Made by a program: the position numbers and the translations under genes
NCBI GenBank assembly: GCA_049523215.1
Contig: JBEKNC010000002.1
Span: 127,963-191,962 of the forward strand
Length of the DNA: 64,000 bases
Source: Bacteroidota bacterium
GTDB lineage: Bacteria > Bacteroidota > Ignavibacteria > UBA10030
Reading direction: 5' to 3'
The notes under the pieces: generated by a model
What the model saw: only the letters and a program-made list of their open reading frames with translations
Told to the model about the DNA's origin: nothing
Databases searched by the model: none
In this document: piece by piece, positions 2,765 through 62,107 of the stretch
How the letters are laid out: each line of letters opens with the position of its first letter
Position numbering within the stretch: the stretch's first letter is position 1

Positions 2765-2769
2765 ATTCT

Positions 2770-16075: not shown

Positions 16076-16853
16076 GGGAAAAAAAATTGAGAGAAAGTGC
16101 TGGAAGAAAAAAAAGAAGGCTTGATTAGCTATGACCCCATCAGTCCCCAGAGGTCGTTTTGCGCGTTCGCATATAAAAATAGACACACGCTTTGTGTGTG
16201 TTTGTAATGGGCCTCCGGCTGCCCTGATAGAAAAGATTCCATGAGGAATCAACGTCATTCCGGCGTGATTCTAGTCGGAATCCAGGGTCTAGATAACCTA
16301 CAACCAATATTTGTTATTTGAGTTAACGCCGCTTTCTTTTGGCGAAAAGAAAGCGACAGAAAGAAACGCTTGTGAAATCGAAATGTGTTTTCTCAAGGTT
16401 GAACTAAGATTGGGGATATGATAAACTCATTGTTAGAAATATAATGTACGGAAGGATTGGAATACACCTTGTCTTGACCCGTCTTTCTTCTATCGATTTC
16501 GCGGCTTAGAGATAAGAATATGAAAAACACGGCGGATAGAGAACTCCTGACTCCACTTGGCCTCCACCTTCTTGACAATGCACTCAAGAAAAACCATATT
16601 GTTCCTGTTCCCGGATTACCAAAGCGCTTAATAGTTATTACCTGTGTATTTTTATGACGTATGCTGAAGAAATAACATTTGAGATGAAGAGAAATATCAT
16701 TCGACTTTTCATGCGTAATAGTCGCAAAAAGCCGACTCAGTCTCACGAAGTTTCCAAAGGAATCCCTTTGGGAGATGCCTTTGGCAGACCTAATCACAGG
16801 TTAGGCGCATAAAAACGTTACACTATTAAATGTAGATGAATATGGAATGAAAT

Positions 16854-17939
16854 ATGAGACTGTACTCAACACCGCTGTCAGCTTCAAGATTGGAAATCAC
16901 GAAGCTTGCAATTATTGAAACAGTATTATCGCTTTCTATCTATTCATTCATTGTCCTGTATTTTGGAAGTCTTAAATACCTTGTAGTTATTATCGTTTTA
17001 GCTCCTCTTACACTATTCCGGACTGATAGTTCTTCAGAATGGGCCATTGATAAATTTAAACTCATTCTTGAAAATCTAAATAAATGGGTTTTTAATTCTT
17101 GGAATGGGAAAGCAATAATTTATCGAGTTCTGCTTGCATTTATTCTTTGGCCTTTATTTGGTGTAAGTCTGCGGGTTGTTTCGACTATTTATTTTTTTAT
17201 TAAGAATCCAATATCTGTAATTGTTGAAATGCCTCGGAACTGGATGCGACAGTGCATTTGTACAGATTTTATGCATCCACCAGAAATATTGCCAATGGAA
17301 TGTGTTAAATCTAGTATAGATAAAAATGTACATTCATTTTATACTTGGAAAAAAGGCCTTATTGATGCGCGTTATTCTGTAAAGTTTGGACTCTTAATAT
17401 TTACTTTACCTTTTTGGATTATTGGATGGATACCTTCTTTATTCTATCGTATTTCATTCAAAGCGACATCTATTGTATATCTACCCTTTATCTGGGTTGC
17501 AAATCTCACCATGCAAAATCCATTACCAGTCAAAAAACGACTTGAGAGATTTACTCAGGGAGAACTGGAAAAGGTTCGTCGTGGCTACTCTTGGATTATT
17601 ATAGTCATGTTACTTTCAAAGATTGGTTTTATATTAGGGTATATTGATATTAATTTCATAACCCAAAAATATTTAAATGAGAGAATTGTAAATACTATTA
17701 TTGTTCCAAATAGTTGGGCATCTTGGCAGATAACATTAGGAATAGACGCATTGTTAACATTCTTTCTACTCTTCTTTACTGATTCAGCACTTGCAAGACT
17801 TGATCATAAACCTTTTTTTAAAGAAGAAACGATATTAAATACTGTTTCATTTATCTCATTTATTAGAGCTGCAATCAGTATTTTTACTATTTCAATATTC
17901 TTTTTTTATGCTCTCAATTTGTTTTTTTTAAAGCAATGA
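16854..17939 (+). CDS. hypothetical polytopic membrane protein (cassette cargo)
   Basis: 361 aa with at least 8 hydrophobic helices. Very AT-rich. Followed 6 bp later by an attC-like element. Confidence 0.6.
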   Translation: MRLYSTPLSASRLEITKLAIIETVLSLSIYSFIVLYFGSLKYLVVIIVLAPLTLFRTDSSSEWAIDKFKLILENLNKWVFNSWNGKAIIYRVLLAFILWPLFGVSLRVVSTIYFFIKNPISVIVEMPRNWMRQCICTDFMHPPEILPMECVKSSIDKNVHSFYTWKKGLIDARYSVKFGLLIFTLPFWIIGWIPSLFYRISFKATSIVYLPFIWVANLTMQNPLPVKKRLERFTQGELEKVRRGYSWIIIVMLLSKIGFILGYIDINFITQKYLNERIVNTIIVPNSWASWQITLGIDALLTFFLLFFTDSALARLDHKPFFKEETILNTVSFISFIRAAISIFTISIFFFYALNLFFLKQ

Positions 17940-17944
17940 AATGT

Positions 17945-18103
17945 GCGCATAACCCGCGGCTCAAGCTGACCGGATGAGCGTTAGTGCATTTTACATTGCG
18001 CGTAGAGGTTTAGTACAGAATTGAAAGTGAAGTGAATGAACTTGGTTCGTTCCGTGCAATTTGAAAGTTCACATTGTCGCAGCTTAGCGCCGGTCCATTA
18101 GGC
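17945..18103 (+). repeat. attC-like site (long variant of the family, reverse-complement orientation relative to array II)
   Basis: GCGCATAACCCGCGGCTCAAGCTGACC … GAACTTGGTTCGTT … GCAATTTGAAAGTT … CGCAGCTTAGCGCCGGTCCATTAGGC. Near-identical to the reverse complement of the 55-61 kb elements. Confidence 0.7.
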
Positions 18104-18132
18104 GGTTGCCAAAATTAATAAGGATTACACAG

Positions 18133-19032
18133 ATGTCAAATAATATTGCGTCTCTCTCTGAATCGACCTTCAGATCAAATATTCGCCACACTGGTTTGCC
18201 AAGCTGTAATATTGATATTAGAACGTTGAAAAAGTTATTTGGTAAATTGAACGAGTGTTGTCGCGAGGCAGCCACAATTGAATTGTCAAAATTACGCCAA
18301 GGCACAATGACTACAGAGCAATACGAAAAATTCAAGAATGATGTAGCCGAATCATATAAAATTAATGTAGAGATACTTGGGAAAAAAGGGGAATACTTTT
18401 CATCAACCTCAGAATCCTTGCTTGATGAAAATGTTTTACCAAGTCAATTAGTAAGACTTACTTTCAATAGTGAATTCCTTTTTAAGACAGCATTCAATGC
18501 CGTTCCAATGAACAGCGTAAAAATCATTATTGATTTTAATAAAGCCACAGTACTTGATTTTTCCTCAAACCCTTCACACCCGACATCCAATGATAGTGTT
18601 ATTGACGTTCTTGGCCAGACAGAATCTTGGGTGGATGGAGTTTATAAGGCTGTGAATGATATTCTTAAAGAATGTAGTACGCATCGAACTTGGTTGCACA
18701 GGAGAGGAATATATGATTTATTTCTATGGTTATTTATTATTCCTCTTTCCTTCTGGAATCTTCATAAATTAGTCTTAGGGTTCCCCACTTTCTTTAATGC
18801 AATTTCCGGTGTAATTCAAGTATTTGTCTCAATCTATTTTCTACTTCTCATTATTTTACTTTATAGAGCATTCTTCAGTTATGCTCGCTGGGTTTTTCCT
18901 TATATCGAACTTAGTTCTACTTCAAAGACTACATCGACCAGGCATAGAATATTTTTTACCGGATTAACACTAACATTGACTTATGGATTGTTGAAAGATT
19001 TAATAAAGAGAATTATTGAAATTATATTTTAA
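18133..19032 (+). CDS. hypothetical protein with C-terminal transmembrane helices (cassette cargo)
   Basis: The ORF-track reading frame opens with TTG at 18106. I used the first ATG (MSNNIASL…), 30 nt after the attC core. The C-terminus has two hydrophobic helices. AT-rich. Confidence 0.55.
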   Translation: MSNNIASLSESTFRSNIRHTGLPSCNIDIRTLKKLFGKLNECCREAATIELSKLRQGTMTTEQYEKFKNDVAESYKINVEILGKKGEYFSSTSESLLDENVLPSQLVRLTFNSEFLFKTAFNAVPMNSVKIIIDFNKATVLDFSSNPSHPTSNDSVIDVLGQTESWVDGVYKAVNDILKECSTHRTWLHRRGIYDLFLWLFIIPLSFWNLHKLVLGFPTFFNAISGVIQVFVSIYFLLLIILLYRAFFSYARWVFPYIELSSTSKTTSTRHRIFFTGLTLTLTYGLLKDLIKRIIEIIF

Positions 19033-19044
19033 TGTATAGCAACT

Positions 19045-19128
19045 GCCTAACTAGGCGCTCCCGCCCAACAAGACAGCGGGGCAGGCAAGCTCGGCTTGTC
19101 CAGAAGGCGAAGCGGCCATCCGTTAGGC
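19045..19128 (+). repeat. attC-like site (short variant)
   Basis: GCCTAAC TAG GCGCTCCCGCC…GGCGGG…CAAGCTCGGCTTGT…GCGGCCATCC GTTAGGC. The termini are perfect 7-bp inverted repeats. Confidence 0.7.
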
Positions 19129-19169
19129 AGCCCTAAAAGTGGGATATCAATCAATAAAGGTGTCGTATT

Positions 19170-19448
19170 ATGATTTTCACACTCATCTATTTTTTCTTCA
19201 TCGTCTGGATAACTATTGTACTGTCTAAATCTATCAAGATAGTGCGAGAGGATCAGCGAGTTGTGATTTTTCGTTTGGGAAAGTATTTTGGTGTTGGTGG
19301 CCCAGGAATAGTTTTTATTTTACCATTTGTAGATAAAATACAAAAGGTCGATCTAAACGAGTCTTTACCAGGATGGCAAACATTACCCAAAGAACTTCTT
19401 GAAGAAAGACTGAAATCACTTGTCATCTATAAGTCAAACAGTTTTTAA
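19170..19448 (+). pseudogene. SPFH/band-7 (stomatin/HflC-like) domain protein, N-terminal fragment only
   Basis: 92 aa: TM helix followed by IVREDQRVVIFRLGKYFGVGGPGIVFILPFVDKIQKVDL, which is the start of an SPFH domain. The sequence terminates long before the domain would end. Confidence 0.5.
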
Positions 19449-19454
19449 CGGGCT

Positions 19455-19700
19455 GCCTAACCAGGCGCTCCCCGCTAATCCCGTAAAAAACACGGGACGC
19501 AAAAAACGCGAAAGCGACGGGGTTTCGCATAAAGCGCTCAACAAGCTCGGCTTGTCTGGAAGAATGCATCACAGCCGGAGCCCTGAGAATGTATCGCGCA
19601 AAGCGCGAAACAATTTCTTAAAAGTGATACAATATTTCTCAATGAGCCCACTGCAATTTACATGGCGCGCATAGGTTTAGTACAGAGAAGTTACAGACTG
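19455..19700 (+). repeat. attC-like site, rearranged or truncated
   Basis: It begins GCCTAAC CAG GCGCTCC and contains CAAGCTCGGCTTGT and the CATTTACATGGCGCGCATAGGTTTAGTACAGA block shared with the element at 17945-18103. It lacks the terminal …GTTAGGC. Confidence 0.5.
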
Positions 19701-50639: not shown

Positions 50640-50790
50640 TATCCTGAATATTGTTCCTATGAATATACAACCACTATTTCATCGAGACAAGCAACATCGG
50701 AGAACTTAACAAATTGGTAATGAATCGTTCATTGTTCTGTAAACCTAATTCGCCATCTTCTAAAGATTCAATTTATAGATAGAATATCCT

Positions 50791-52770: not shown

Positions 52771-52959
52771 CAACGGGACTGTAAAAAGATCCTCATCCGT
52801 TATAATATTATTTCATTTCGTTTATTCAGTTTATAATACCTTAACCCTTCCATGATACTCCAGTAAGAACTTTATAGCATATTGATTCCTCTCCACAATC
52901 TTTCTCTCTTTTTCCTTTTTTATATTGTCATGCCAGCAGGTGAAATGATCTTTGCTTTT

Positions 52960-52987
52960 GTAGGGACGTATAGCTATACGTCCCTAC
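52960..52987. terminator. 28-bp perfect palindrome forming a bidirectional terminator-like hairpin between convergent genes
   Basis: GTAGGGACGTAT AGCT ATACGTCCCTAC: 12-bp stem with a 4-nt loop, between the 3' ends of the regulator gene (plus strand) and the oxidoreductase gene (minus strand). Confidence 0.6.
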
Positions 52988-52993
52988 AATAAT

Positions 52994-53956
52994 TCAATCC
53001 CAGCCACTTACAACATCGACAGCGATGCGGCCGTGCACAGCGCCTGACTGAAGGCGTTTGAGACCGGCGGCGACGTCCTTAATTTTCACGGTTTGAAAAA
53101 CCGGGACTTTAAGTCCATGCCTGAGCCAGCTCCCGAGCAGATCGAGGTCCTGCGCGCGTGGTTTGACGATGACGAAGTGCGCGCGAGTAGGTGTTACAAT
53201 ACTGGCAAGCTTATCCCGGAAGAATGCGGGAGTAGGCAGAGTGGTCACATAAGCGCCGCCCCTCTCGATGAGGTGCCGGCTTGCTTGCCATGAAGATGCG
53301 GCGGCAGTGTCGAAGACCAAGTTGAAGGGTCCGCTTGCGGTTTGGAGAGGAGAGACCTTCAGGCGATCGATAACCTCTTCGGCTCCGAGCTCCTTGACGA
53401 AATCCACAGCGTGTGTGGCACAGATTGCGGTCACACGGGCTCCCAGCTTGAGCGCAACCCCGACGGCAACTGAACCTACACCGCCCGAAGCGCCGATGAC
53501 GAGTACGCGTCCACTCGAAGTTAGCTTGCCGATGTCGCGCAGAGATTGAAGAGCGGTGAGACCGGCGGTGGCGCTTGCGGCAGCAATCGTATGCGCTATC
53601 CCTTCGGGTTTTTTGGCGAGCGCAGTCGCATTTGCGAGTGTGAATTCAGCGAAAGCACCGAGCCGGGTTGCACGGCCGTACGGGAGATGTCCGAAAACCT
53701 CATCGCCCCGCTCAAGACCGGAAACATTTCTCCCCAGCGCATCGATGACGCCCGAGAAATCGAAGCCCACGACCATGGGGAAGACGCGGGCGTGGAGGAT
53801 TTTCGTCTCGCCTGTAACAGATTTGAAGTCGGCAGGATTGAGCGCCGATGCGTGGACACGTATACGAACCTGACCGGGACCCGGTTCGGGCAGCGGCAGA
53901 TCTACGATCCTCAGTGATTCGAGAGGGCCGTAAGAAGGAGAAACGAGTGCGCGCAT
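52994..53956 (-). CDS. zinc-type alcohol dehydrogenase / NADPH:quinone oxidoreductase (MDR superfamily)
   Basis: Rossmann GxGxxG (VIGASGGVGSVAV) and GroES-like N-terminal domain. Confidence 0.85.
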   Translation of the reverse strand: MRALVSPSYGPLESLRIVDLPLPEPGPGQVRIRVHASALNPADFKSVTGETKILHARVFPMVVGFDFSGVIDALGRNVSGLERGDEVFGHLPYGRATRLGAFAEFTLANATALAKKPEGIAHTIAAASATAGLTALQSLRDIGKLTSSGRVLVIGASGGVGSVAVGVALKLGARVTAICATHAVDFVKELGAEEVIDRLKVSPLQTASGPFNLVFDTAAASSWQASRHLIERGGAYVTTLPTPAFFRDKLASIVTPTRAHFVIVKPRAQDLDLLGSWLRHGLKVPVFQTVKIKDVAAGLKRLQSGAVHGRIAVDVVSGWD

Positions 53957-54126
53957 AATTGACCAATCCTTTCATTCATGATGATTTGTATGGTTTGTAA
54001 TATGGACATTTTTCTCATAGAGAATCAATTACTATGGAAACATATCTTTCTTACCACTTGTTCCTTCGGGAAAATCGCGGAACGCGATCTGGACATATTT
54101 GTGGTGGTAAGCGGACAAGTGGGCAA

Positions 54127-54327
54127 TTAATCATTCTCCTTCCGCAGTGTCGCCTTCCATCCGTCTTCCGGATCGAGCCTAACATCGACCTGCCACGGTC
54201 GACAACATACCGGGCAGTCCTGCACGAAGGACTGGCGACTTCCCCCGCTCTCATCGACGTCCAGCTCTACGTCCTCGCCGCAGTAGGGACAGTTTAGTGG
54301 AACGGGTTCAATCATCTGATTCTCCAC
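54127..54327 (-). CDS. CPXCG-motif cysteine-rich zinc-ribbon protein
   Basis: 66 aa with CPYCG…and…CPVCC, two CxxC pairs. Confidence 0.65.
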   Translation of the reverse strand: MENQMIEPVPLNCPYCGEDVELDVDESGGSRQSFVQDCPVCCRPWQVDVRLDPEDGWKATLRKEND

Positions 54328-54338
54328 GGCGGGTTAGC

Positions 54339-54472
54339 ACCTAACGATGGCCACTCCGCCAAACAACCGGCGGACAAGCCGAGCTTGTCTGCCCCGCTGT
54401 ATTTTTGTCCGTTTCGATATTCATATCGAAACGCGATCTCGACGAAGTCGGACGGGGAGCGCCTGGTTAGGC
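54339..54472 (-). repeat. attC-like site E1 (distal end of array II)
   Basis: ACCTAAC…CAAGCCGAGCTTGTC…hairpin GTTTCGATAT/ATATCGAAAC…GGAGCGCC TG GTTAGGC. Confidence 0.65.
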
Positions 54473-54503: not shown

Positions 54504-55058
54504 TTAACAAATTTTAATCGTTTCGCTGCATCTTTCTCCACCGAGTATGATTGTTTCATCTATTATAACCTTGACTTTTTCCTTAAATAAGGTTCCAAAG
54601 AATTCTTGCATAAAACTTTTACAACAATAGTTGCATAATGATTTTTGGGGCTGTTGCCCCTGTGCATAAGCACAATCACATGGCAATTTTCGCCCAATCA
54701 CTTTTAGTACCGACTTTTCAGAATCATACTGAATTTTTTCCCAACGGCTGGAATTTCCATTGTTTACAAATTCTATTAAACCGGTCAGGGTCATACTTTT
54801 AATCCATTTCACAGCATTTGTGCAATAGAAACATTCGTAACCGAGTTTGCCGAATACTTTTTGTTTTATTGACTCATCCATGTCACCGTCGACAAAACTT
54901 AAAAGTTTTGTAATTTGCTCACGGTGTGCATCTCTGACAGATTTGTTGTTGTTTGTTTTGCTTACCTGGGCGTGGAGTTGTTTATCCGGAAGCGACAAGG
55001 ATAAAAGGGAAAGCACACCACAGGCTGAGCATTTTTGAATAAATTCTTTTCTTTCCAT
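54504..55058 (-). CDS. hypothetical Cys-rich secreted protein (cassette 1)
   Basis: I placed the start at MERKEF… so that it clears the attC. Signal-like segment. Many Cys (CDCAY…CNYCC). Confidence 0.5.
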   Translation of the reverse strand: MERKEFIQKCSACGVLSLLSLSLPDKQLHAQVSKTNNNKSVRDAHREQITKLLSFVDGDMDESIKQKVFGKLGYECFYCTNAVKWIKSMTLTGLIEFVNNGNSSRWEKIQYDSEKSVLKVIGRKLPCDCAYAQGQQPQKSLCNYCCKSFMQEFFGTLFKEKVKVIIDETIILGGERCSETIKIC

Positions 55059-55091: not shown

Positions 55092-55247
55092 GCCTAACGG
55101 ACTGGCGCTAAGCTGCGGCGTGACCAACTTTCAATTTGCACTAAACGAAATGAGTTCACATTGATAGCTTTCAAAATGTACTAAACCGTTGTGAGCCATG
55201 TTTAACGTACCCAGCTGGCAACCGTCAGCTTGAGCGCCTGGTTATTA
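55092..55247 (-). repeat. attC-like site E2 (right core degenerate GTTATTA)
   Basis: GCCTAAC GGACTG GCGCTAAGCTGCGGCGTGACCAACTTTCAATTTGCACTAAACGAAATGAGTTCA…CAGCTTGAGCGCC TG GTTATTA. Confidence 0.7.
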
Positions 55248-55322
55248 CCAAAAAGGAACCTCCCGATTATGTACATTAATGAGTCTCTAGTTCAACAATA
55301 TTCACAATCTAAGGAGGTTCCC

Positions 55323-55430
55323 ATGTATTACTCAGGTATCGATTTGCACTCTGATAATTGCTATATCACCACTGTTGACGATACTGGCGCTGTCATCTCT
55401 TGTATAACAGAGACGGAGTTATTATTTTGA
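55323..55430 (+). pseudogene. IS110-family transposase N-terminal remnant (35 codons)
   Basis: Strong RBS (TAAGGAGG). MYYSGIDLHSDNCYITTVDDTGAV resembles the IS110 DEDD-transposase N-terminus (…GIDLHK…V..D..G.V). A stop follows after 35 aa. Confidence 0.35.
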
Positions 55431-55565
55431 GCCCATACACCGATCATACAGAGACTTCCAAGAATGCCAAAGAAAAGAAATATGTATTTCATTTTTATGC
55501 TTAAAGAATGAACAGAAATGATTTTATAAAATATCTTTTTGAAATAACACAACGACACTACTATC

Positions 55566-57320
55566 TCAGTTTGTCGCTCCTTGAATCAATGCATCCAACG
55601 CTTGCTGATCCAATACAGTGTTATTATTTCTATTTAAAAGGCTACCAGTGTCCCAGTAGTACGGTAAAAGTCCATTGGCTTTTGCCTGCTTTGTTACATA
55701 TTTAAAGTAATATGCCCTTGATGCTAAATGCAAGGTTAATGCATCGCCAGTTAAAGAGGAACGGCGTATTGCAGAAAACTCGCCCAATACGACAGGAATA
55801 CCTTTGTCAACAAATTTGGTTTTCATTGATTGGAAATAGCTATCGACACTTGATTCTTCGCCCCAGGTGGCATTACGTGTTGGATCTGTTGTGGAATGAT
55901 AATCTTTACCCCAGTAATAGAACATTTTGCCCCAGCTGGCATCTGCATCCAGCCCGCAAAAATTCCATGGTGTGTAATAATGTATTTCAACCATCATGCG
56001 GTTCGAAATTTTATCGGTGGGCAGAGTCTGCATCAATTGGTTAGTCTTATCAATATCAGTTGATGGGCCTTGAACGACTAGGACCCGGTAACTATTTTTT
56101 CCACCCGTCGACCGAACCGCATTGATAAATGTCTGGTGGTACGACATTAATACCGCCATTTGTGTTGCATCTGATACATTCGGTTCATTAGCACCTGCAA
56201 ACAGTAAATGCTCATCGAAACCGCGCATTTGAGTGGCTATTTGTTCCCAGAATGCTCGCTGCTTCGCATTGTTCTCTGCCTGTTTAGCTACTGTGCAATT
56301 GTTTTCCAGCCATCCTCCATCCCAGTGAATATTAAGAAGAACATACAAGTCATTATCAACACAATATTGTATTACGTCCTTGACCCTATCGAGCCAATCT
56401 GTTTTTAATTGTGCAGTTGAACTATTTGCCATGTATTGGTTCCAGGAACAAGGTAGACGAACGGCAGTGAAGCCGCTTTGTTTCACAAATCCAATAAAGG
56501 ATTTTGTGATGCGTGGATTGCCCCAAGCCGTTTCTCCTCCAATAGCTTCCAAGGTGTTACCAATGTTCAAGCCTAGAGTAATTTTAGCAGCGAGTTCAAC
56601 AGCAGTGCTGCTCATCCCCGCTGCATCAGGAGCTATTGGTGCAGTATTATAGTTTGGATAGATATCCGCTGTCTGCGTTACGGAAATTTGTACCGGGGGA
56701 GTATATTGTGCACTCACCGTGATAATTGCTGACCGTAAATTACTGCCGGTATTTTCTGATGATGTTACAGTAATTGAAGTGTTGCCTTTAGCACCCGTAC
56801 TCTGACTATATTGCAGCCAGTCGACGGTAGAGCTAATATTCCATTGTGGTGCATCGGTGCTGATACTTATGGTAGAAGCACTGCTTGCTTTTGTAAGGTT
56901 GATGTATGTGGTGTCTGTTGAAAGAGAATAGAGATAATCAGATGAAGGCTGCGATACAACCACTTGCACCGCTTTGGCATTACCGGCAGTGATTGTGAGT
57001 ATGATGCTGCGTGGTACAATGGTTTTGGAATTTACACTCAATGTCACTGTGTCCGTTTTTTCCGTTCCGCCTGTACTTGATAAAACCAACCAATCAGAAG
57101 CAGGTTTGCTGATGTTCCATGAACCGGCGCCAGTATTAATTATGATGGTGTCGCTGCCACCTTCTTTTTGAAAATTTATTGTATCGGGACTAACAGTCAG
57201 GATATTTACTTCTTCCTTATCGGGACTAACAGTCAGGGGTTCTTCTTTCTTGCATCCGATCAAATAAATTAAGCTAAGAACAAAAATACTAAAACTTATA
57301 TATTTATTAAATCTTTTCAT
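55566..57320 (-). CDS. lipoprotein glycoside hydrolase family 5 (endoglucanase-like) with N-terminal BACON-like domains (cassette 2)
   Basis: Lipobox …LIGCKK. Two roughly 80-aa BACON-like repeats (WNIS…DWL…). GH5 catalytic domain with acid/base in GANEPN and nucleophile in VLGEFS. Confidence 0.8.
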   Translation of the reverse strand: MKRFNKYISFSIFVLSLIYLIGCKKEEPLTVSPDKEEVNILTVSPDTINFQKEGGSDTIIINTGAGSWNISKPASDWLVLSSTGGTEKTDTVTLSVNSKTIVPRSIILTITAGNAKAVQVVVSQPSSDYLYSLSTDTTYINLTKASSASTISISTDAPQWNISSTVDWLQYSQSTGAKGNTSITVTSSENTGSNLRSAIITVSAQYTPPVQISVTQTADIYPNYNTAPIAPDAAGMSSTAVELAAKITLGLNIGNTLEAIGGETAWGNPRITKSFIGFVKQSGFTAVRLPCSWNQYMANSSTAQLKTDWLDRVKDVIQYCVDNDLYVLLNIHWDGGWLENNCTVAKQAENNAKQRAFWEQIATQMRGFDEHLLFAGANEPNVSDATQMAVLMSYHQTFINAVRSTGGKNSYRVLVVQGPSTDIDKTNQLMQTLPTDKISNRMMVEIHYYTPWNFCGLDADASWGKMFYYWGKDYHSTTDPTRNATWGEESSVDSYFQSMKTKFVDKGIPVVLGEFSAIRRSSLTGDALTLHLASRAYYFKYVTKQAKANGLLPYYWDTGSLLNRNNNTVLDQQALDALIQGATN

Positions 57321-57383
57321 TGTTTTCTCGTCCTTTGATATCAATATCTCATATTTTCCATCGAAACAAATTTCTATTTTAAA

Positions 57384-57592
57384 AGCGTAAGCGGCCTAAC
57401 GGATCGGCGCTAAGCTGCGGCGTGACCAACTTTCAATTTGTACAAAACGAAATGAGTTCATGCTAGTACTTTCAATTTTGTACTGACCTATGCACGCCAT
57501 GCTTAACGCACCCAACTGGCAACCGTCAGCTAGCTTGTTGAGCGCTTTCTGCGAAATCCCGCTGTTTTCTAGCGGGAAGCGCCTGGTTAGGC
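57384..57592 (-). repeat. attC-like site E3
   Basis: GCCTAAC GGATCG GCGCTAAGCTGCGGCGTGACCAACTTTCAATTTGTACAAAACGAAATGAGTTCATGCT…hairpin CCCGCTGTTTTCTAGCGGG…AGCGCC TG GTTAGGC. Confidence 0.75.
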
Positions 57593-57616
57593 CGCAAGTG
57601 GTGATAATAATAAATT

Positions 57617-58252
57617 TTATAGCGAGTACTGAACACCAACCATCAATCCACCAAACCCAACTTTCCCTGATGAGAGAAATAATTCGGATCGTAGACTGAC
57701 TGGTTCGACAACATCAATTGCAAAACCAATACCGAAAGCAATATAGAAACCCTTATCAGTACGCGATGATTTGTATCTGATTATTGTATTACCATGGTCA
57801 ATCGATCGATATTCTTCACTTGGAAAATATTGATACCAATATCCCGGACGCAAAAGTAGATACGGACGAATAGGAAAGGATAGTGGAGCTATGATTCGCA
57901 ATCCACCCGAAAGATCAAATCGATGTGAAGCCCCCGACGGAATTCTCGGATATACTAAATAATCCGGTGGAAATCCTTCATTATATTCATGAACAAAAAT
58001 CAAATGATCATAACGGAACAAGCCGATTAATTCTAAACTAGGAGTATTTGTTGTAGTTAAACCCAAGCCTACTGTCCAATTAGGTACATAAGCAGCAAAA
58101 TCACTTCTTGGTGGCCCAATATAAACAATCAGTCCTGTTTGTAATTCAAGATTTGTTGACCTTTGACCATAGGAAACAAATGGAGTACAAATTACGATGG
58201 AGACAATAGCCAATAGTAATAAATATGATTTCATAAGTTTAGTATTCTTCAA
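57617..58252 (-). CDS. outer-membrane beta-barrel (porin-family-like) protein (cassette 3)
   Basis: Signal peptide. Alternating beta-strand pattern. Gly/aromatic-rich, 211 aa. Confidence 0.5.
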   Translation of the reverse strand: MKNTKLMKSYLLLLAIVSIVICTPFVSYGQRSTNLELQTGLIVYIGPPRSDFAAYVPNWTVGLGLTTTNTPSLELIGLFRYDHLIFVHEYNEGFPPDYLVYPRIPSGASHRFDLSGGLRIIAPLSFPIRPYLLLRPGYWYQYFPSEEYRSIDHGNTIIRYKSSRTDKGFYIAFGIGFAIDVVEPVSLRSELFLSSGKVGFGGLMVGVQYSL

Positions 58253-58267
58253 TATACAAAAACACTA

Positions 58268-58435
58268 TTAACTTGCGGCCTAACGGACGGGCGCTAAGCT
58301 GCCACGTTGATAATTTTCGTAATGCAACAAACGAAATGAGTTCATGCTGTCAATTAAATTATTAAGCACAAATACTCTAAGCGCCATGTTAATTCGTAGT
58401 AAGCTCATCTGGTCAGCTTGAGCGCCTGGTTAGGT
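58268..58435 (-). repeat. attC-like site E4
   Basis: GCCTAAC GGACGG GCGCTAAGCTGCCACG…AACGAAATGAGTTCATGCT…GCTTGAGCGCC TG GTTAGGT. Confidence 0.75.
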
Positions 58436-58445
58436 GCCATTTGCT

Positions 58446-59507
58446 TTATTTAGTTTTCGCAAGAGTACCATGTGCAACACCTCTTGTTTTACCATCGATG
58501 ATAAGGAAAACATCACTTTGGAACACAGCGCAATCATAAAATGTATCAGCTTCGTAGAGTGATTGAATATCCGAACCGTTGTAATGTCCCAATATACACT
58601 TCTGATAATTCCCATGGTAAGCAACCCATGCAAATATATCTTTTTCATTTCTTCCGAATAGCGCACCAATAGTATAATCGGGATTAGAGTACCAAACACT
58701 AAAATCTGTTCCTGAATATTTCCAAATTGTATTTTTGACTCCTGCAGTAAAATATACCCTACCATCAACTTCGTAAGCAGTGCGCTGTTCACTTTTGCTT
58801 GAGAAGATTTCACGGACATTATTTGTTCCATCAAATTCATAAAGTTTTTCAATGAATCCAGTAATGGTCACGGGATTAGTTGTCGTGTCATAAAGAACTG
58901 TTTCACCAGAAAGATAATATTTTCCAGTTTCATTTGAGCTCTTTACAATCTTGAAAAAACTTGCTGTGATATTTGGAATGTCAAGAAAAGACCATTTCGT
59001 TCCATCATATTTAAGTATGACTGCCTTTCCCGAAGTATTTGGATTGCCTACACCTCCAACCGCAAAAACATTTTGAGGAGAGTCGCCCCAAATATCAGAA
59101 ATATAAGTAAGTGAATAACCTGACAAATGAAAATCACCAAACAAGCTCCAATTGGCTCCTTCATAGTGATAAATTGGTCCGCCAGGCGAAGTACCAATCC
59201 AGACATCACTACTTGAAAAACCAAATACAGAACTTAAATTCGCTCCAGCAAGTTGACCAGTTGTTGTCCAATTGGAACCATTGAAGTGCCAAATTCCTGT
59301 AGTTCCAACAGCCCAAACATCACTTGGTGAATTTCCCCAAATTCTATCTAAATGTTGGAATGGGTCTATATGAATTGTGTCGACTTTCCATGTATAATCT
59401 CTTCGTCCAGTTACTATTTGTTCTTGCGGAGCAACGATATCTTTTTTGCAACTTAAAATGATTACGGAACATAAAAGTAGTATCACTATTTTAAATTTCA
59501 TGTTCAT
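58446..59507 (-). CDS. beta-propeller lipoprotein (BNR/Ycf48-like repeats) (cassette 4)
   Basis: Lipobox (…IILSCKK). Repeated …W(A/I)VGT…G.I..(Y/F).G..W… blades. Confidence 0.55.
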   Translation of the reverse strand: MNMKFKIVILLLCSVIILSCKKDIVAPQEQIVTGRRDYTWKVDTIHIDPFQHLDRIWGNSPSDVWAVGTTGIWHFNGSNWTTTGQLAGANLSSVFGFSSSDVWIGTSPGGPIYHYEGANWSLFGDFHLSGYSLTYISDIWGDSPQNVFAVGGVGNPNTSGKAVILKYDGTKWSFLDIPNITASFFKIVKSSNETGKYYLSGETVLYDTTTNPVTITGFIEKLYEFDGTNNVREIFSSKSEQRTAYEVDGRVYFTAGVKNTIWKYSGTDFSVWYSNPDYTIGALFGRNEKDIFAWVAYHGNYQKCILGHYNGSDIQSLYEADTFYDCAVFQSDVFLIIDGKTRGVAHGTLAKTK

Positions 59508-59541: not shown

Positions 59542-59750
59542 ACCTAACGGATCGGCGCTAAGCTGCGGCGCTGATAATTTTCAAAATGCACAAAACGAAA
59601 CAAGTTCCATGTCAAAAGATTTATCATTTGCACGCGACCTCTGCTCGCCATGAATTTTGCAGCGCGCTCATTGAGATTAAGTATCACGCTTCGCGTGATT
59701 CAGTTATCTGGACAAGCCGAACTTGAGCGCCTGGTTAGGCAGCAACTTAC
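59542..59750 (-). repeat. attC-like site E5
   Basis: ACCTAAC GGATCG GCGCTAAGCTGCGGCG…AACGAAACAAGTTCCATG…hairpin ATCACGCTTCGCGTGAT…ACTTGAGCGCC TG GTTAGGC. Confidence 0.75.
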
Positions 59751-59765
59751 TGTATATATCGTCAA

Positions 59766-60392
59766 TCACTTCATCCCCGATTGTCTACGGCGAAGGATCA
59801 TTAGCACGATGGGCAATGACACAGCAATCAGTGACACGAAATTAATTCCAAATATCCGAGGTACGGTTTTCATGTCCAGAAAGATAAAACTAAGCAACAA
59901 GAGAATAAGAATTACAGAATAGGCAATGAATCTGCGATCAGGTTCTGTTTCAATTGGTGCCCACACGCTTAGGGCAGACCGTATTTGATCGTACCCCATA
60001 AGTTCCTTGGGCACAAGAATCCATTGAAATTTGTTATTTGATTCTATTCGTAATGCGCGATTGGAAATATCAACAATGCGGGACACATCGGAACGATGTA
60101 TGACAGTTTGAAACGTGCCAACTTTTTTGCTGCTGATACTGTCCTGTTCGAGAGTAACCTGGAGTGAAGCTTCAGCTCGCGCCATCGGCATAATCTTGAC
60201 GAAGCCTGCCACCGCAATGGCAATAGCGCAAGGAACAATGATGAATGGAAAGACGATAATTGGAAAGGGATCCTGAAGATAGCTTGTGACCATTAATACG
60301 GTTACTACGGATCCGATTAAGGCAAACACCTTGGTGGCAAAGCGGCGCTTTATTTGTTCTGACTGCTCTGTTGAGAATTGGAATGTCGGCAT
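59766..60392 (-). CDS. hypothetical membrane protein (cassette 5)
   Basis: I placed the start at MPTFQF… so that it clears the attC. Three or four TM helices. Confidence 0.5.
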   Translation of the reverse strand: MPTFQFSTEQSEQIKRRFATKVFALIGSVVTVLMVTSYLQDPFPIIVFPFIIVPCAIAIAVAGFVKIMPMARAEASLQVTLEQDSISSKKVGTFQTVIHRSDVSRIVDISNRALRIESNNKFQWILVPKELMGYDQIRSALSVWAPIETEPDRRFIAYSVILILLLLSFIFLDMKTVPRIFGINFVSLIAVSLPIVLMILRRRQSGMK

Positions 60393-60412: not shown

Positions 60413-60639
60413 CCACCTAACGGATGGCAACTAAGCTGCGGCAACGAGAAGCCGCAATTTTCTGAAAACGAACCAAGTTCATACTGATAAGTTTATTATT
60501 AAACATCTAAACCTCTATTAGCCATACTTAACGCACCACGCTCATTCAAATTTAGTATCGCGCTTTGCGCGATTCAATTATCTGGACAAGCCGAGCTTGC
60601 CTGCCCCGCTGTTTTCTAGCGGGGAGCGCCTGGTTAGGC
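60413..60639 (-). repeat. attC-like site E6 (longest, 227 bp)
   Basis: ACCTAAC GGATGG CAACTAAGCTGCGGCAACG…AACGAACCAAGTTCATACT…ATCGCGCTTTGCGCGAT…CCCCGCTGTTTTCTAGCGGGG AGCGCC TG GTTAGGC. Confidence 0.75.
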
Positions 60640-60680: not shown

Positions 60681-60953
60681 TCAATGAGAATTATTTTGAG
60701 TGCTATCCTTCAGCCGCAGGAGAGGTGTATATAACTCACGGTTCAGAGAATCGAGTTTTCTCTGACCCATTTCTTCTTTAGCTGGTTTATGTTTTTTGAG
60801 TTTCTGCTTAGGTGCTTGTATCTTCGATTTATTTCTCTGAGCACCTGTGGTATCTGACGATGCAGGTGTGGACTTCTTTTCCTGTGCGGCATTTGCCGGT
60901 AGGATACAGAAGGTGAACCCAAAAGCCAGAACGATTATAATAATTTTTTTCAT
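60681..60953 (-). CDS. small secreted Lys-rich protein (cassette 6)
   Basis: Signal peptide MKKIIIIVLAFGFTFCILPANA, then a low-complexity K/Q-rich region. Confidence 0.5.
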   Translation of the reverse strand: MKKIIIIVLAFGFTFCILPANAAQEKKSTPASSDTTGAQRNKSKIQAPKQKLKKHKPAKEEMGQRKLDSLNRELYTPLLRLKDSTQNNSH

Positions 60954-60976: not shown

Positions 60977-61134
60977 GCCTAACGGATGGCGGCTAAGCTG
61001 CCGCACTGAATATTATCAAAATACACAAAACGAAAAAAGTTCATGCTGAAAAGTTTATTATTAAAAACTAAAACCTATGCAAGCCATGCTTAACGTCGTA
61101 CGCTCATTCGGTCAGCTTGAGCCGCTGGTTAGGG
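60977..61134 (-). repeat. attC-like site E7
   Basis: GCCTAAC GGATGG CGGCTAAGCTGCCGC…AACGAAAAAAGTTCATGCT…CAGCTTGAGCCGC TG GTTAGGG. Confidence 0.75.
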
Positions 61135-61143
61135 CGCACGTTA

Positions 61144-61746
61144 TTAATGCAAGTAATTAAATGACAATGGACTATACTTAAAATTGTGATGCCAATACAT
61201 TTTTATATTTGGCGAATTTAATATTCGATTGTTAGCGTGAATATCTTTAATCGAAAACACAATGCTGTCCTTCATTTTATAGCTAACATCGTATAGCAAC
61301 ACAATGTGTTTTTCATTGGGCGTTATAAATACTGTATCACTAATTGAGCAAGCCCTTGATTGCTTACCGCTTGTATTTGTATATATTTCGCGAGCATTTA
61401 TTATGGTGGGGGAGTTTATACAAGAATTACAAAGGGATACTTTTTTCAAGTCCATTTTCATAGTATCCATGTATGTCGAGAGTATAAGATCAACTTCTAC
61501 TGGCCCCAAATCATGCGGCGCGATAAGACCAAATGGAAATAATGGTACTAACGGCGGACCAATCGCAAAGAATGCATCAGACGACATGGAAAGACGGATA
61601 TTTAAGTTATCTTTTGAGCATTGAATAAAGTCTTGTGATTTGCCGGAATTATTTCCTTCAGGATTCCATTCATTATGACGTTCTATATTAGAACATCCAT
61701 ATAACATAAAAGATAAAACAAGAAGTATAAATAATATGCTTTTCAT
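61144..61746 (-). CDS. hypothetical lipoprotein (cassette 7, closest to the integrase-proximal end; AT-rich)
   Basis: Lipobox …MLYGCSN. 200 aa with no recognisable family. Confidence 0.5.
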   Translation of the reverse strand: MKSILFILLVLSFMLYGCSNIERHNEWNPEGNNSGKSQDFIQCSKDNLNIRLSMSSDAFFAIGPPLVPLFPFGLIAPHDLGPVEVDLILSTYMDTMKMDLKKVSLCNSCINSPTIINAREIYTNTSGKQSRACSISDTVFITPNEKHIVLLYDVSYKMKDSIVFSIKDIHANNRILNSPNIKMYWHHNFKYSPLSFNYLH

Positions 61747-61754
61747 TTTATTTG

Positions 61755-61800
61755 CCGTGCGCCCTAACTACTGATTAGATAGACTCAGTCTATCTTTTGC
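61755..61800 (-). repeat. terminal core (GTTAGGG / CCCTAAC) followed by a 17-bp palindrome; end of array II, possible attI-like remnant
   Basis: GCGCCCTAAC TACTGATTA GATAGACTCAGTCTATC TTTTGCGC. Only the core half of an attC is present, followed by the perfect palindrome GATAGACT C AGTCTATC. Confidence 0.4.
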
Positions 61801-62107
61801 GCTTATAAGCATGATATATAGACTTTGTGTTTAATATTGTATTTAATTTCTCAAGAACTGTCATTGGCGATCCCCCAATGGTAATAATCAGAGATTTGAG
61901 ATTTTTGCTGGTATAATATACATGTTTATCGATGGGAGGGCAAGGTTAAAAGTAACAACATCCTAAACGGGTGATAGAAGAAAGAAAAGTTCGAAGGGAA
62001 TTTGTAAAAGAACTTAACAAATTGGTAATGATTTGTTCATCGTTTGGAAAAGCGGATTTGCTATTTTATGGCATCAATAATCAACAACAATTTACAAGGA
62101 GGTTCAA

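What the first reader, a model, noticed from the sequence alone, without database searches (positions are those of the whole stretch)
55566..57320. A 1.75-kb GH5 cellulase lipoprotein as integron-type cargo; the cargo is dominated by exported proteins
Seen in sequence: cassette 2 encodes a lipoprotein with two BACON-like domains and a GH5 catalytic domain (the NEP acid/base and GEF nucleophile motifs). In array II, six of the seven cassette proteins have signal peptides, lipoboxes or TM helices. Inference: the cassette pool here appears to shuffle cell-surface and polysaccharide-degrading functions. That would be an adaptive role different from the antibiotic-resistance paradigm.
Basis: partly seen in the sequence, partly recalled or inferred. 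Interest (0 to 1): 0.5.

Follow-up and report, generated by a model that had tools for sequence, protein, structure and literature searches.

The report
Xyloglucanase-type GH5 gene as integron cassette
A surface-anchored plant-polysaccharide-cutting enzyme gene in an uncultured soil Ignavibacteria genome sits inside an integron-type gene-cassette array. Its closest relatives lie in other such arrays, so it is mobile cargo rather than a core gene: an unusual member of a known kind of system.

Summary
Window 55566-57320 (-) encodes a 584-aa lipoprotein with two BACON domains and a GH5 domain. The catalytic domain is 66% identical to the characterised Cellvibrio endo-xyloglucanase CjGH5D (GH5_4), so "xyloglucanase" fits better than "cellulase".

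The gene lies in an array of seven attC-type sites with canonical R''/L''/L'/R' layout, and all ORFs are co-oriented. The window has no integrase, so both arrays are CALINs. Relatives with the same attC family do carry true integron integrases.

The five closest GH5 homologues with readable DNA (78-86% identical) lie in non-syntenic contexts. Two are flanked by intact attCs and three by decayed ones. DNA homology stops at the cassette boundary. A 66% homologue lies in an attC-free locus.

In this window the cassette's 3' side is damaged. An IS110-family element inserted in the R'' box of the downstream attC, and a deletion followed, so the gene is probably immobilised.

Exported cargo dominates: 10 of 11 window cassettes, and 72% versus 40% control in related arrays, by a crude heuristic. 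CAZymes are a minority of cargo.

Integrons in Ignavibacteria and signal-peptide enrichment of cassettes are already published. This is a new member of a known kind.

The parts
55566..57320 (-). GH5_4-type glycoside hydrolase lipoprotein gene (584 aa): lipoprotein signal with lipobox LIGC, two BACON domains, GH5 catalytic domain
   Evidence: ORF. Pfam PF00150 E=3.6e-54 and BACON x2. 66% identity over 364 aa to PDB 5OYC CjGH5D, E=4e-167.
57321..57393 (-). Cassette 5' leader between the R' crossover point and the GH5 start codon. It is conserved with homologues L004 and L005 and carries an AAATTTG motif, a possible cassette-borne promoter (inference only).
   Evidence: blastn homology to L004 begins at window 57393 and to L005 at 57383. 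Sequence.
57394..57592 (-). attC site upstream of GH5, belonging to the preceding cassette. Its R' (GTTAGGC, 57400-57394 on the minus strand) marks the start of the GH5 cassette.
   Evidence: Repeat family D1/D5. The DNA fold pairs GCCTAAC with GTTAGGC and GGCGCT with AGCGCC, with bulges. Its R'' extension GTTAGGCCGCAAGT is a perfect 14-nt complement of the start of its own cassette at 58271-58284.
55092..55242 (-). attC site downstream of GH5, truncated in its R'' box by an IS insertion. L'', L' and R' are intact.
   Evidence: Junction CCTGGT|TATTACC compared with an uninterrupted CCTGG|TTAGGC and with the L071 IS junction.
55243..55400 (+). Remnant of an IS110-family (IS1111-attC-like) insertion sequence: left end plus about 26 codons of the transposase (MYYSGIDLHSDNCYITTVDDTGAVI)
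   Evidence: An intact homologous element in L071 (2830-3831) matches NF033542 IS110 at E=8.5e-50 and is inserted at the same attC position.
55401..55565 (.). DNA of unknown origin between the IS remnant and the GH5 stop. Only the 5-16 nt nearest the stop codon are homologous to the 3' flank in L003, L004 and L005. Interpreted as a deletion junction that removed the native 3' UTR and R''.
   Evidence: Homology with L003/L005 ends at window 55550 and with L004 at 55561. The native 3' flank and attC are seen in L005 9744-10029 and L127 1960-2204.
60977..61134 (-). attC site (array II, first)
60415..60639 (-). attC site (array II, 225 nt, with extra hairpin modules)
59542..59740 (-). attC site (array II)
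58278..58435 (-). attC site (array II)
54339..54472 (-). attC site (array II, last recognisable; lacks the lineage-specific central module)
61750..61762 (-). Array-proximal recombination core G|TTAGGGCGCAC. It is complementary to the R'' extension of the first cassette's attC at 61128-61140. It may be the core of an attI or of a lost attC. No integrase lies beyond it.
   Evidence: No similarity to attI regions of L071, L034 or L005. The neighbour at 62402-63517 (+), a 371-aa ORF with a signal-peptide-like N-terminus, has no Pfam match and is not an integrase.
61144..61746 (-). Cassette ORF, 200 aa, lipoprotein-like N-terminus (MKSILFILLVLSFMLYGC)
60681..60953 (-). Cassette ORF, 90 aa, signal-peptide-like N-terminus
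59766..60392 (-). Cassette ORF, 208 aa, four predicted TM segments
58446..59501 (-). Cassette ORF, 351 aa, lipoprotein (lipobox ILSC), beta-propeller-like. Distantly similar to cassette lipoproteins in L094.
57617..58234 (-). Cassette ORF, 205 aa, signal-peptide-like N-terminus
54504..55058 (-). Cassette ORF, 184 aa, Cys-rich, Tat-like or signal-like N-terminus (MERKEFIQK...)
54127..54327 (-). Cassette ORF, 66 aa, CPXCG zinc-finger protein (cytoplasmic)
   Evidence: Pfam PF14255 E=1.3e-18
16800..19690 (+). Array I: a second CALIN in the opposite orientation. It holds three cassettes (ORFs 16854-17939, 18133-19032, 19170-19448), all membrane proteins. Its attCs are at 17947-18103, 19045-19128 and 19454-~19690 (the last one truncated).

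Best explanation
The 1.75-kb gene encodes an outer-membrane-anchored lipoprotein: signal peptide with lipobox, two BACON domains, and a GH5 subfamily-4 catalytic domain. It most likely cleaves the backbone of xyloglucan or a related beta-1,4-glucan outside the cell. It reached this Ignavibacteriales-like chromosome as an integron gene cassette, inserted by an IntI-type tyrosine recombinase at an attC/attI site. It now lies sixth in an eight-gene cluster of attC sites that has no integrase in this window (a CALIN).

The same gene circulates in this lineage as a cassette of about 2.1 kb, bounded by attCs of one attC family. In the present genome an IS110-family element that targets attC sites inserted into the R'' box of the downstream attC. 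A deletion then removed most of that IS and the cassette's native 3' end. The gene is therefore probably fixed in place.

Shown: the gene architecture, the attC anatomy, the absence of intI in the window, its presence next to the same attC family in relatives, non-synteny with homology ending at the cassette boundary, and the IS junction.

Inferred: substrate, surface localisation, expression, loss of mobility, and the order of the IS and deletion events.
For: Gene architecture and enzyme class. CjGH5D is a strict endo-xyloglucanase and a predicted outer-membrane lipoprotein (PMC5816542). CjGH5D and soil Bacteroidota homologues form GH5_4 subclade 2D (bioRxiv 10.1101/2024.06.03.597110).

attC anatomy. 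The sites read RYYYAAC...GTTRRRY (GCCTAAC/GTTAGGC) with L boxes GCGCT-C-AAGCTG/CAGCTT-AGCGC. One base of L'' is unpaired and the spacers are asymmetric, as in classical attCs, and the ORFs are co-oriented with the top strand. The repeat motifs are far above chance.

The same attC family occurs in many Ignavibacteriota/Bacteroidota MAGs. In L071 and L034 the arrays abut proteins scoring 453 and 457 bits against TIGR02249 'integron integrase', whose cutoff is 265.

Mobility of the GH5 unit. L127 and L005 have intact attCs on both sides. L126, L004 and L003 have decayed attCs. The neighbours differ in every case, and homology is limited to window 57393-55550. A homologue at 66% identity lies in a 6.2-Mb genome without attCs.

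An independent 2.1-kb contig from another sample reproduces both junctions at 99.95% identity. IS remnant and junction. Host lineage: Obg is 86% identical to 'Ignavibacteriales bacterium'.
Against: No integrase or recognisable attI was found in the 64-kb window. The rest of the genome could not be searched, so I cannot say whether the arrays are currently active.

The downstream attC lacks R'', and the cassette start and R'' do not match, so this copy fails the test of an excisable unit.

The cassette is much larger than typical: the published median cassette ORF is about 400 nt (PMC7370490).

No promoter could be identified; the sigma-70 scan was at chance level. Expression is therefore unknown.

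Substrate specificity is extrapolated from 66% identity to one characterised enzyme, and GH5_4 also contains promiscuous glucanases. Signal-peptide and lipoprotein calls rest on sequence inspection and a home-made heuristic.
Confidence: 0.82

Rival explanations
1. The repeats are not attC sites. They are another kind of intergenic palindromic repeat (REP/BIME/MITE-like), and the genes between them, GH5 included, are ordinary chromosomal genes.
For: The window has no integrase. The sites are unusually long at 134-225 nt, and their central part is conserved in sequence. Folding z-scores are modest: -2.5 and -1.3.
Against: The sites have the exact RYYYAAC/GTTRRRY cores and L-box layout, with a strand asymmetry that matches ORF orientation. 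In relatives, arrays of the same family start directly next to TIGR02249-positive integron integrases. Each cassette start is complementary to its own R'' extension: 14 of 14 nt for the 57617-58234 cassette and 12 of 12 nt for the 61144-61746 cassette. This is the footprint of IntI crossover. Gene content between repeats differs in every genome. An attC-targeting type of IS is inserted in the repeats.
Confidence: 0.04
2. The GH5 gene is a resident (core) gene of this lineage that has merely been engulfed by a growing cassette array. The flanking attCs belong to neighbouring cassettes and the gene itself never moved as a cassette.
For: In the window the gene lacks an intact attC of its own. Full-length homologues at 60-69% identity are common in ordinary Bacteroidota chromosomes, for example Prolixibacter and Ohtaekwangia. 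One examined locus (L124) has no attCs. The gene is far longer than typical cassettes.
Against: In L127 and L005 the gene has its own complete attC immediately 3' and an R' immediately 5'. The five nearest contexts with DNA are non-syntenic, and homology ends at or within ~50 nt of the cassette boundaries. There is an identity gap: 78-100% for attC-associated copies against 69% or less for all others. Another large CAZyme (GH42) is bounded by attCs in L041.
Confidence: 0.08
3. The juxtaposition is an assembly or binning artefact: a chimeric contig joined at repeated attCs.
For: attC repeats break and mis-join short-read assemblies. Several homologue contigs end at attCs.
Against: An independent Logan assembly from another run (SRR7028477) matches window 55308-57423 at 99.95% identity, spanning the attC-GH5 junction and the GH5-IS junction. 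The identical protein is recorded by NCBI, JGI, ENA and Logan on contigs up to 382 kb. Core genes continue on both sides of the array.
Confidence: 0.03

Closest known systems
Sedentary chromosomal integrons and CALINs (clusters of attC sites lacking an integron integrase), as defined by IntegronFinder (Cury 2016; Neron 2022, PMC9024848)
   Same: There are arrays of co-oriented single-gene units separated by attC sites with R''/L''/L'/R' boxes. The attC sequences are lineage-specific and alike within an array, as with Vibrio VCRs. No adjacent integrase is present, which makes these CALINs. Relatives have complete integrons with a divergent intI. Integrons were already reported in Ignavibacteriae and Chlorobi.
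   Different: The attCs are long: mostly about 150 nt and up to 225-300 nt, against the usual 57-141 nt (the usual range is from my own knowledge). Two short arrays in convergent orientation lie 33 kb apart. Cargo is strongly biased to exported proteins and includes cassettes of 2 kb or more.
CjGH5D (Cellvibrio japonicus Cel5D, PDB 5OYC) and BoGH5A (Bacteroides ovatus, PDB 3ZMR): GH5_4 endo-xyloglucanases, subclade 2D
   Same: The catalytic domain is 66% identical to CjGH5D, with both catalytic Glu motifs conserved. Like CjGH5D it has a lipoprotein signal, and like BoGH5A it has N-terminal BACON domain(s).
   Different: BoGH5A and the Flavobacterium homologues sit in SusC/SusD xyloglucan utilisation loci. 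This copy is a solitary gene in a cassette array with no SusC/D or debranching enzymes nearby. It has two BACON domains. Its activity is untested.
Cassette-encoded exported proteins (Ghaly et al. 2023 iScience, PMC10661359; macroalgal biofilm cassettes, PMC10963911)
   Same: Cassette proteins are enriched in signal peptides, which is read as mediating interactions with the environment.
   Different: Published levels are 11-16% signal peptides, or about one third when TM proteins are included. Here the crude estimate is 57% signal-peptide-like and 72% SP or TM in this attC family, and 10 of 11 in the window. Carbohydrate metabolism is reported as strongly under-represented among cassettes (OR 0.158, PMC7370490), so GH5_4 and GH42 cassettes are atypical.
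IS1111-attC group of IS110-family insertion sequences, which target integron attC sites (Tetu & Holmes 2008; cited from my own knowledge)
   Same: An IS110-family element is inserted at a fixed position in the R''-side of an attC: an intact copy in L071 and a remnant in the window.
   Different: The host is Ignavibacteria rather than Proteobacteria. The window copy is a roughly 160-nt stump. Membership in the IS1111 subgroup was not tested.

Membership tests
Integron gene cassette | Bounded 5' by the R' crossover point (G|TTRRRY) of the preceding attC | tested here: met
   G|TTAGGC at 57400-57394 on the minus strand. Homology with L004 starts at 57393.
Integron gene cassette | Carries its own complete attC (R''-L''...L'-R') 3' of the ORF | tested here: not met
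   In the window the downstream attC (55092-55242) lacks R'', which is replaced by an IS110 remnant, and the native 3' flank is deleted. The feature is met in homologous cassettes L127 (1973-2204) and L005 (from 9896).
Integron gene cassette | attC folds as an imperfect hairpin with paired R and L boxes and extrahelical bases that define the recombinogenic strand | tested here: met
   In the DNA folds of 57394-57593 and 55092-55246 the L boxes (GGCGCT with AGCGCC) pair with bulges. The R boxes (GCCTAAC with GTTAGGC) pair only in 57394-57593, because the downstream site has lost R''. The unpaired C in L'' and the asymmetric spacers were read from the alignment. No dedicated attC covariance model was available.
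Integron gene cassette | The same unit is found in different arrays or positions (evidence of mobility) | tested here: met
   Five non-syntenic contexts for homologues at 78-86% identity, attC-associated in every case.
Complete integron (intI + attI + Pc + cassettes) | An integron integrase gene adjacent to the array | tested here: not met
   Pfam scans of 30 window ORFs, covering both arrays and their flanks, found no tyrosine recombinase. A six-frame motif scan of the whole window found none either. Relatives L071 and L034 have TIGR02249-positive IntI.
CALIN (cluster of attC sites lacking integrase) | At least two attC sites and no intI nearby | tested here: met
   Seven attC-type sites in array II and three in array I, with no intI in 64 kb.
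Glycoside hydrolase family 5, subfamily 4 (GH5_4) | GH5 (beta/alpha)8 catalytic domain with a conserved acid/base Glu (NEP) and nucleophile Glu (GEF) | tested here: met
   PF00150 E=3.6e-54. Both motifs align with 5OYC.
Glycoside hydrolase family 5, subfamily 4 (GH5_4) | Closest characterised relatives belong to subfamily 4 | tested here: met
   The top PDB hits are CjGH5D (E=4e-167, 66% identity), BoGH5A (3ZMR), an exo-xyloglucanase (4W8A) and the Paenibacillus xyloglucanase (2JEP). dbCAN/CAZy subfamily HMMs were not available.
Glycoside hydrolase family 5, subfamily 4 (GH5_4) | Endo-xyloglucanase activity | not testable with these tools
   Requires an enzyme assay. Inferred from CjGH5D (PMC5816542).
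Bacterial lipoprotein (SPase II substrate) | An n-region and h-region followed by the lipobox [LVI][ASTVI][GAS]C | tested here: met
   MKRFNKYISFSIFVLSLIYLIG-C23. LipoP and SignalP were not available.
Polysaccharide utilisation locus (PUL) component | A SusC/SusD pair and cognate glycosidases adjacent to the gene | tested here: not met
   The neighbours are unrelated small cassette ORFs, and no SusC/D domains appear within +/-10 kb.

The most novel reading that the evidence does not exclude
In soil and peat Ignavibacteria, integrons may work mainly as a shuffling platform for the cell envelope and secretome. About 70% of cargo would be exported proteins, several-fold above published cassette averages. 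The system would tolerate unusually large cassettes (2 kb or more) that carry complete extracellular enzymes such as a GH5_4 xyloglucanase and a GH42 beta-galactosidase. Integron recombination would then be a concrete vehicle for the suspected horizontal spread of GH5_4 subclade 2D among soil bacteria.
Probability: 0.4. Interest if true: 0.55.

Novelty: new member of a known kind. Interest (0 to 1): 0.4.

Why it matters
Integron cassettes are usually short (about 400 nt), mostly of unknown function, and depleted in carbohydrate metabolism. This case is a documented 2-kb cassette carrying a complete, surface-anchored plant-hemicellulose endoglucanase. It is seen in several arrays at different stages of decay, from intact to IS-disrupted to fossil.

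That shows integrons can move full extracellular CAZymes between genomes of an abundant soil lineage. It also offers a mechanism for the horizontal spread of GH5_4 xyloglucanases proposed from phylogeny.

More broadly, it points to Ignavibacteria integrons as a system where the idea that cassettes mediate interaction with the environment could be tested on proteins of predictable function. It does not change the concept of what integrons are.

Tried and rejected
(1) Integrase search in the window. Pfam on 30 ORFs and a six-frame tyrosine-recombinase motif scan found none. The 134-aa ORF 16393-16797 next to array I looked faintly like a recombinase C-terminus by eye, but it has no Pfam or NCBIfam hit. 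Rejected.

(2) attI recognition. The DNA upstream of both arrays was compared with the intI-proximal regions of L071, L034 and L005. Only 13-17-nt matches appeared, so there is no evidence either way.

(3) A promoter or structured RNA inside the attCs. I considered whether the conserved ~110-nt centre of the window's attCs has such a role. Rfam gave no hit at E<=0.1. In 112 attCs (~150 nt) of the same family from other genomes, the centre has a different, lineage-specific sequence. It is best read as species-specific attC sequence, as in Vibrio VCRs. Rejected as a separate element.

(4) Sigma-70 promoter and terminator scan around GH5. Counts were at chance level. This is uninformative, because FCB-group promoters are not covered by the scan.

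(5) The apparent 'degenerate R'' box TAATAAC' downstream of GH5 is not a mutated box. Comparison with L071 shows it is an IS junction.

(6) Two context look-ups (P0009, P0021) returned gene lists but no DNA. P0021's neighbourhood of many small co-oriented genes looks cassette-like, but this could not be checked.

The taxonomic distribution of the attC family is therefore a lower bound, and single hits in Proteobacteria and other phyla were not evaluated.
Full report
THE OBSERVATION

On the minus strand it runs from an ATG at 57320 to a stop codon ending at 55566, giving 584 aa. The longest reading frame starts at a TTG at 57344.

Pfam finds a GH5 'Cellulase' domain (PF00150, E=3.6e-54) and two BACON stretches (PF13004, E=1.4e-11). 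The N-terminus MKRFNKYISFSIFVLSLIYLIG-C is a textbook lipoprotein signal. The GANEPN and VVLGEFSA motifs are present.

The flanking repeats are not chance. CCTAACGGAYNGG occurs 8 times against 0.22 expected. CCTGGTTAGG occurs 9 times against 1.33 expected. Both cluster at about 54.3-61.2 kb and 18-19.5 kb.

WHAT THE REPEATS ARE

When aligned on the coding strand of the neighbouring genes, the repeats read as follows: GCCTAAC-CAG-GCGCT-C-AAGCTG, then a centre of about 40-180 nt, then CAGCTT-AGCGC-CnnTCC-GTTAGGC.

This is the attC layout: an R'' box (RYYYAAC), L'', L' and an R' box (GTTRRRY). One base in L'' is unpaired and the spacers are asymmetric. Single-strand DNA folds pair the R and L boxes.

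All cassette ORFs run in the attC top-strand direction. Cassette starts are complementary to their own R'' extensions. The match is 14 of 14 nt for the 57617-58234 cassette and 12 of 12 nt for the 61144-61746 cassette. This is the footprint of IntI crossover.

Array II (61762 down to about 54127, minus strand) has seven attC-type sites and eight ORFs. A GC-rich alcohol dehydrogenase gene follows it with no intervening attC. Array I (16800-19690, plus strand) has three cassettes and ends in a truncated attC.

No tyrosine recombinase is encoded anywhere in the 64 kb. Both arrays are therefore CALINs, not complete integrons.

RELATIVES

An exact-pattern scan of one genome per species found this attC family in many MAGs labelled Ignavibacteriota, Ignavibacteriae or Bacteroidota. 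They come from peat, fen and Danish soils, and some carry 10-16 sites per 8 kb.

In two of them (L071, a closed 3.6-Mb chromosome, and L034) the array starts next to a divergently transcribed 319-aa protein. These proteins score 453 and 457 bits against TIGR02249 'integron integrase', whose cutoff is 265. The repeat family is therefore the substrate of a true integron system.

The window's Obg protein is 86% identical to one from an 'Ignavibacteriales bacterium'. Integrons have been reported before in Ignavibacteriae (PMC9024848).

IS THE GH5 GENE CARGO OR CORE?

The protein has thousands of full-length homologues with the same architecture. There is an identity gap: six hits at 78-86% plus the identical sequence, and everything else at 69% or below. 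I examined five of the close ones.

- L127 (80%): an R' (GTTAGCG) lies 79 nt upstream of the start codon. A complete attC lies 14 nt after the stop codon, and another cassette follows.
- L005 (78%): the gene is the fourth cassette after an attI-like junction. It follows DUF4145, an unknown ORF and a GNAT acetyltransferase, and its own attC begins 153 nt after the stop.
- L126 (80%): half-attCs on both sides.
- L004 (79%): an upstream attC with mutated R'' and R' boxes, a fossil.
- L003 (86%): a truncated attC remnant upstream and ordinary genes downstream.

The neighbours differ in every case. blastn homology to the window is confined to 57393/57383/57347 through 55561/55550, which is the cassette interior.

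A 66% homologue in a 6.2-Mb genome (L124) lies in AT-rich, attC-free DNA.

It fails for the close relatives. The gene is cassette cargo in this lineage, probably recruited from a Bacteroidota-type chromosomal gene.

An independent contig from another sequencing run reproduces the window's junctions at 99.95% identity, which rules out an assembly chimera.

THE DAMAGED 3' SIDE

In the window, homology to the other cassettes stops 5-16 nt after the stop codon. About 165 nt of unrelated DNA follow.

Next comes, on the opposite strand, a stretch (55243-~55400) matching the left end and first ~26 codons of an IS110-family element. An intact copy of that element sits in L071 (NF033542, E=8.5e-50).

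In both genomes the IS abuts the same point of an attC...GCTGG(A/T)|TATTACC. What looks like a degenerate R'' box (TAATAAC) is therefore an IS junction.

The simplest history is as follows. An attC-targeting IS inserted into the R'' of the downstream attC. A deletion then removed the rest of the IS, the R'' and the native 3' flank. This copy therefore lacks a functional attC of its own and is probably fixed. The order of events is inferred.

FUNCTION

The catalytic domain is 66% identical over 364 aa to PDB 5OYC, Cellvibrio japonicus CjGH5D (E=4e-167). The next hits are BoGH5A (3ZMR) and other xyloglucanases.

CjGH5D is a GH5_4 enzyme that strictly requires branched xyloglucan. It is predicted to be lipid-anchored on the outer membrane (PMC5816542). 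It groups with soil Bacteroidota enzymes in subclade 2D, for which horizontal transfer between phyla has been suggested (bioRxiv 10.1101/2024.06.03.597110).

'Endo-xyloglucanase-like GH5_4' is therefore a better label than 'cellulase'. Unlike BoGH5A or the Flavobacterium enzyme, this copy has no SusC/D or debranching partners nearby.

Activity, localisation and expression are inferred. The sigma-70 scan was uninformative.

THE 'EXPORTED CARGO' CLAIM

I used a home-made heuristic: an N-terminal charged n-region plus hydrophobic h-region, or a 19-residue Kyte-Doolittle window of 1.9 or more.

By this measure, with array I cassette B read by eye, 10 of 11 window cassette proteins look exported or membrane-bound.

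In 31 arrays of the same attC family from other genomes, 54 of 75 cassette ORFs of at least 100 aa score positive. The control is 25 of 62 non-cassette ORFs (odds ratio 3.8, Fisher p=2.5e-4). For N-terminal signals alone the figures are 43/75 versus 20/62 (p=0.004).

The heuristic overcalls, so the absolute numbers are soft. The contrast within the same heuristic is clear.

Pfam scans of the 18 largest cassette proteins gave these results:
- a GH42 beta-galactosidase lipoprotein, a 2.4-kb cassette bounded by two complete attCs in L041;
- two Sortilin/BNR propellers with type-IX secretion tails;
- secreted peptidases (matrixin, DUF5700);
- an alpha/beta hydrolase;
- a RES toxin;
- an IS110 transposase;
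- several lipoproteins of unknown family, one distantly related to the window's 351-aa cassette lipoprotein.

The 'cell-surface/exported' theme holds. 'Polysaccharide-degrading' is a minor component.

COMPARISON WITH THE LITERATURE

Cassette proteins are known to be enriched in signal peptides: 16.1% versus 6.8% in metagenomes (PMC10661359). Another estimate is about one third with SP or TM (PMC10963911).

Cassette ORFs are short, with a median of 402 nt. Carbohydrate metabolism is strongly under-represented among them (OR 0.158; PMC7370490).

Full-text searches for integron cassettes together with glycoside hydrolase or cellulase found no report of such a cassette. The searched library is incomplete.

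The finding is thus an atypical, well-documented example within a known system.

VERDICT

Cassette cargo: yes. Exported bias: yes. The array is a CALIN rather than a complete integron. The enzyme is xyloglucanase-like rather than a cellulase. This copy is immobilised. CAZymes are not a dominant theme.

Novelty: new member of a known kind. Interest: moderate, 0.4.

Noticed in passing
window 55243-55400 (+); L071 ~2751-4127: Remnant of an IS110-family element inserted exactly in the R'' box of an attC. An intact copy occupies the same attC position in an Ignavibacteriota chromosome. This is attC-targeting IS behaviour (IS1111-attC-like) outside Proteobacteria. A second IS110 transposase lies between attCs in L111.
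   Followed up: partly
window 16800-19690 (+): A second, convergently oriented CALIN (array I) lies 33 kb from array II. Its three cassettes all encode membrane proteins. The first attC has a mutated R' core (ATTAGGC, 18097-18103) and the last attC is truncated at about 19690.
   Followed up: partly
window 52994-54327 (-): A zinc-type alcohol dehydrogenase gene has 57.6% GC against about 43% for the window. It directly follows the CPXCG cassette gene with no attC between them, and ends in a perfect 16+16-nt palindrome (52958-52989). It is either a two-gene cassette or foreign DNA fused to the decayed end of the array.
   Followed up: no
all attC sites of the family (window and loci L005-L123): The attC family is unusually long. 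108 of 199 detected sites fall in the 150-159-nt length bin (112 at 145-162 nt) and others reach 190-300 nt. The central part is conserved within a genome but differs between genomes.
   Followed up: partly
L089, L116, L051 (contig CAWGZY010000005.1, 16-72 kb); L078, L105, L100 (OY970334.1, 3.736-3.832 Mb): Some relatives carry dense attC arrays in every sampled 8-kb stretch over more than 50 kb. This suggests very large sedentary chromosomal integrons in this lineage.
   Followed up: no
L041 1650-3894: A complete GH42 beta-galactosidase lipoprotein (695 aa; PF02449 E=7e-119) forms a 2.4-kb cassette between two full attCs. It is a second CAZyme in this cassette pool.
   Followed up: partly
window 7963-9123 (+), GC profile 8001-9000: A 1-kb stretch with only 28.8% GC overlaps an Orn/DAP/Arg decarboxylase-like gene. 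It is a compositional island unrelated to the arrays.
   Followed up: no
window 50701-50759 and 62009-62067: A 59-nt direct repeat (80% identity) lies upstream of two unrelated genes, one on each side of array II. It may be a shared regulatory region.
   Followed up: no
window 19778-21088 (+): A GLUG-motif protein with a type-IX secretion C-terminal sorting domain lies immediately after the truncated end of array I. It could be a former cassette or the first core gene.
   Followed up: no
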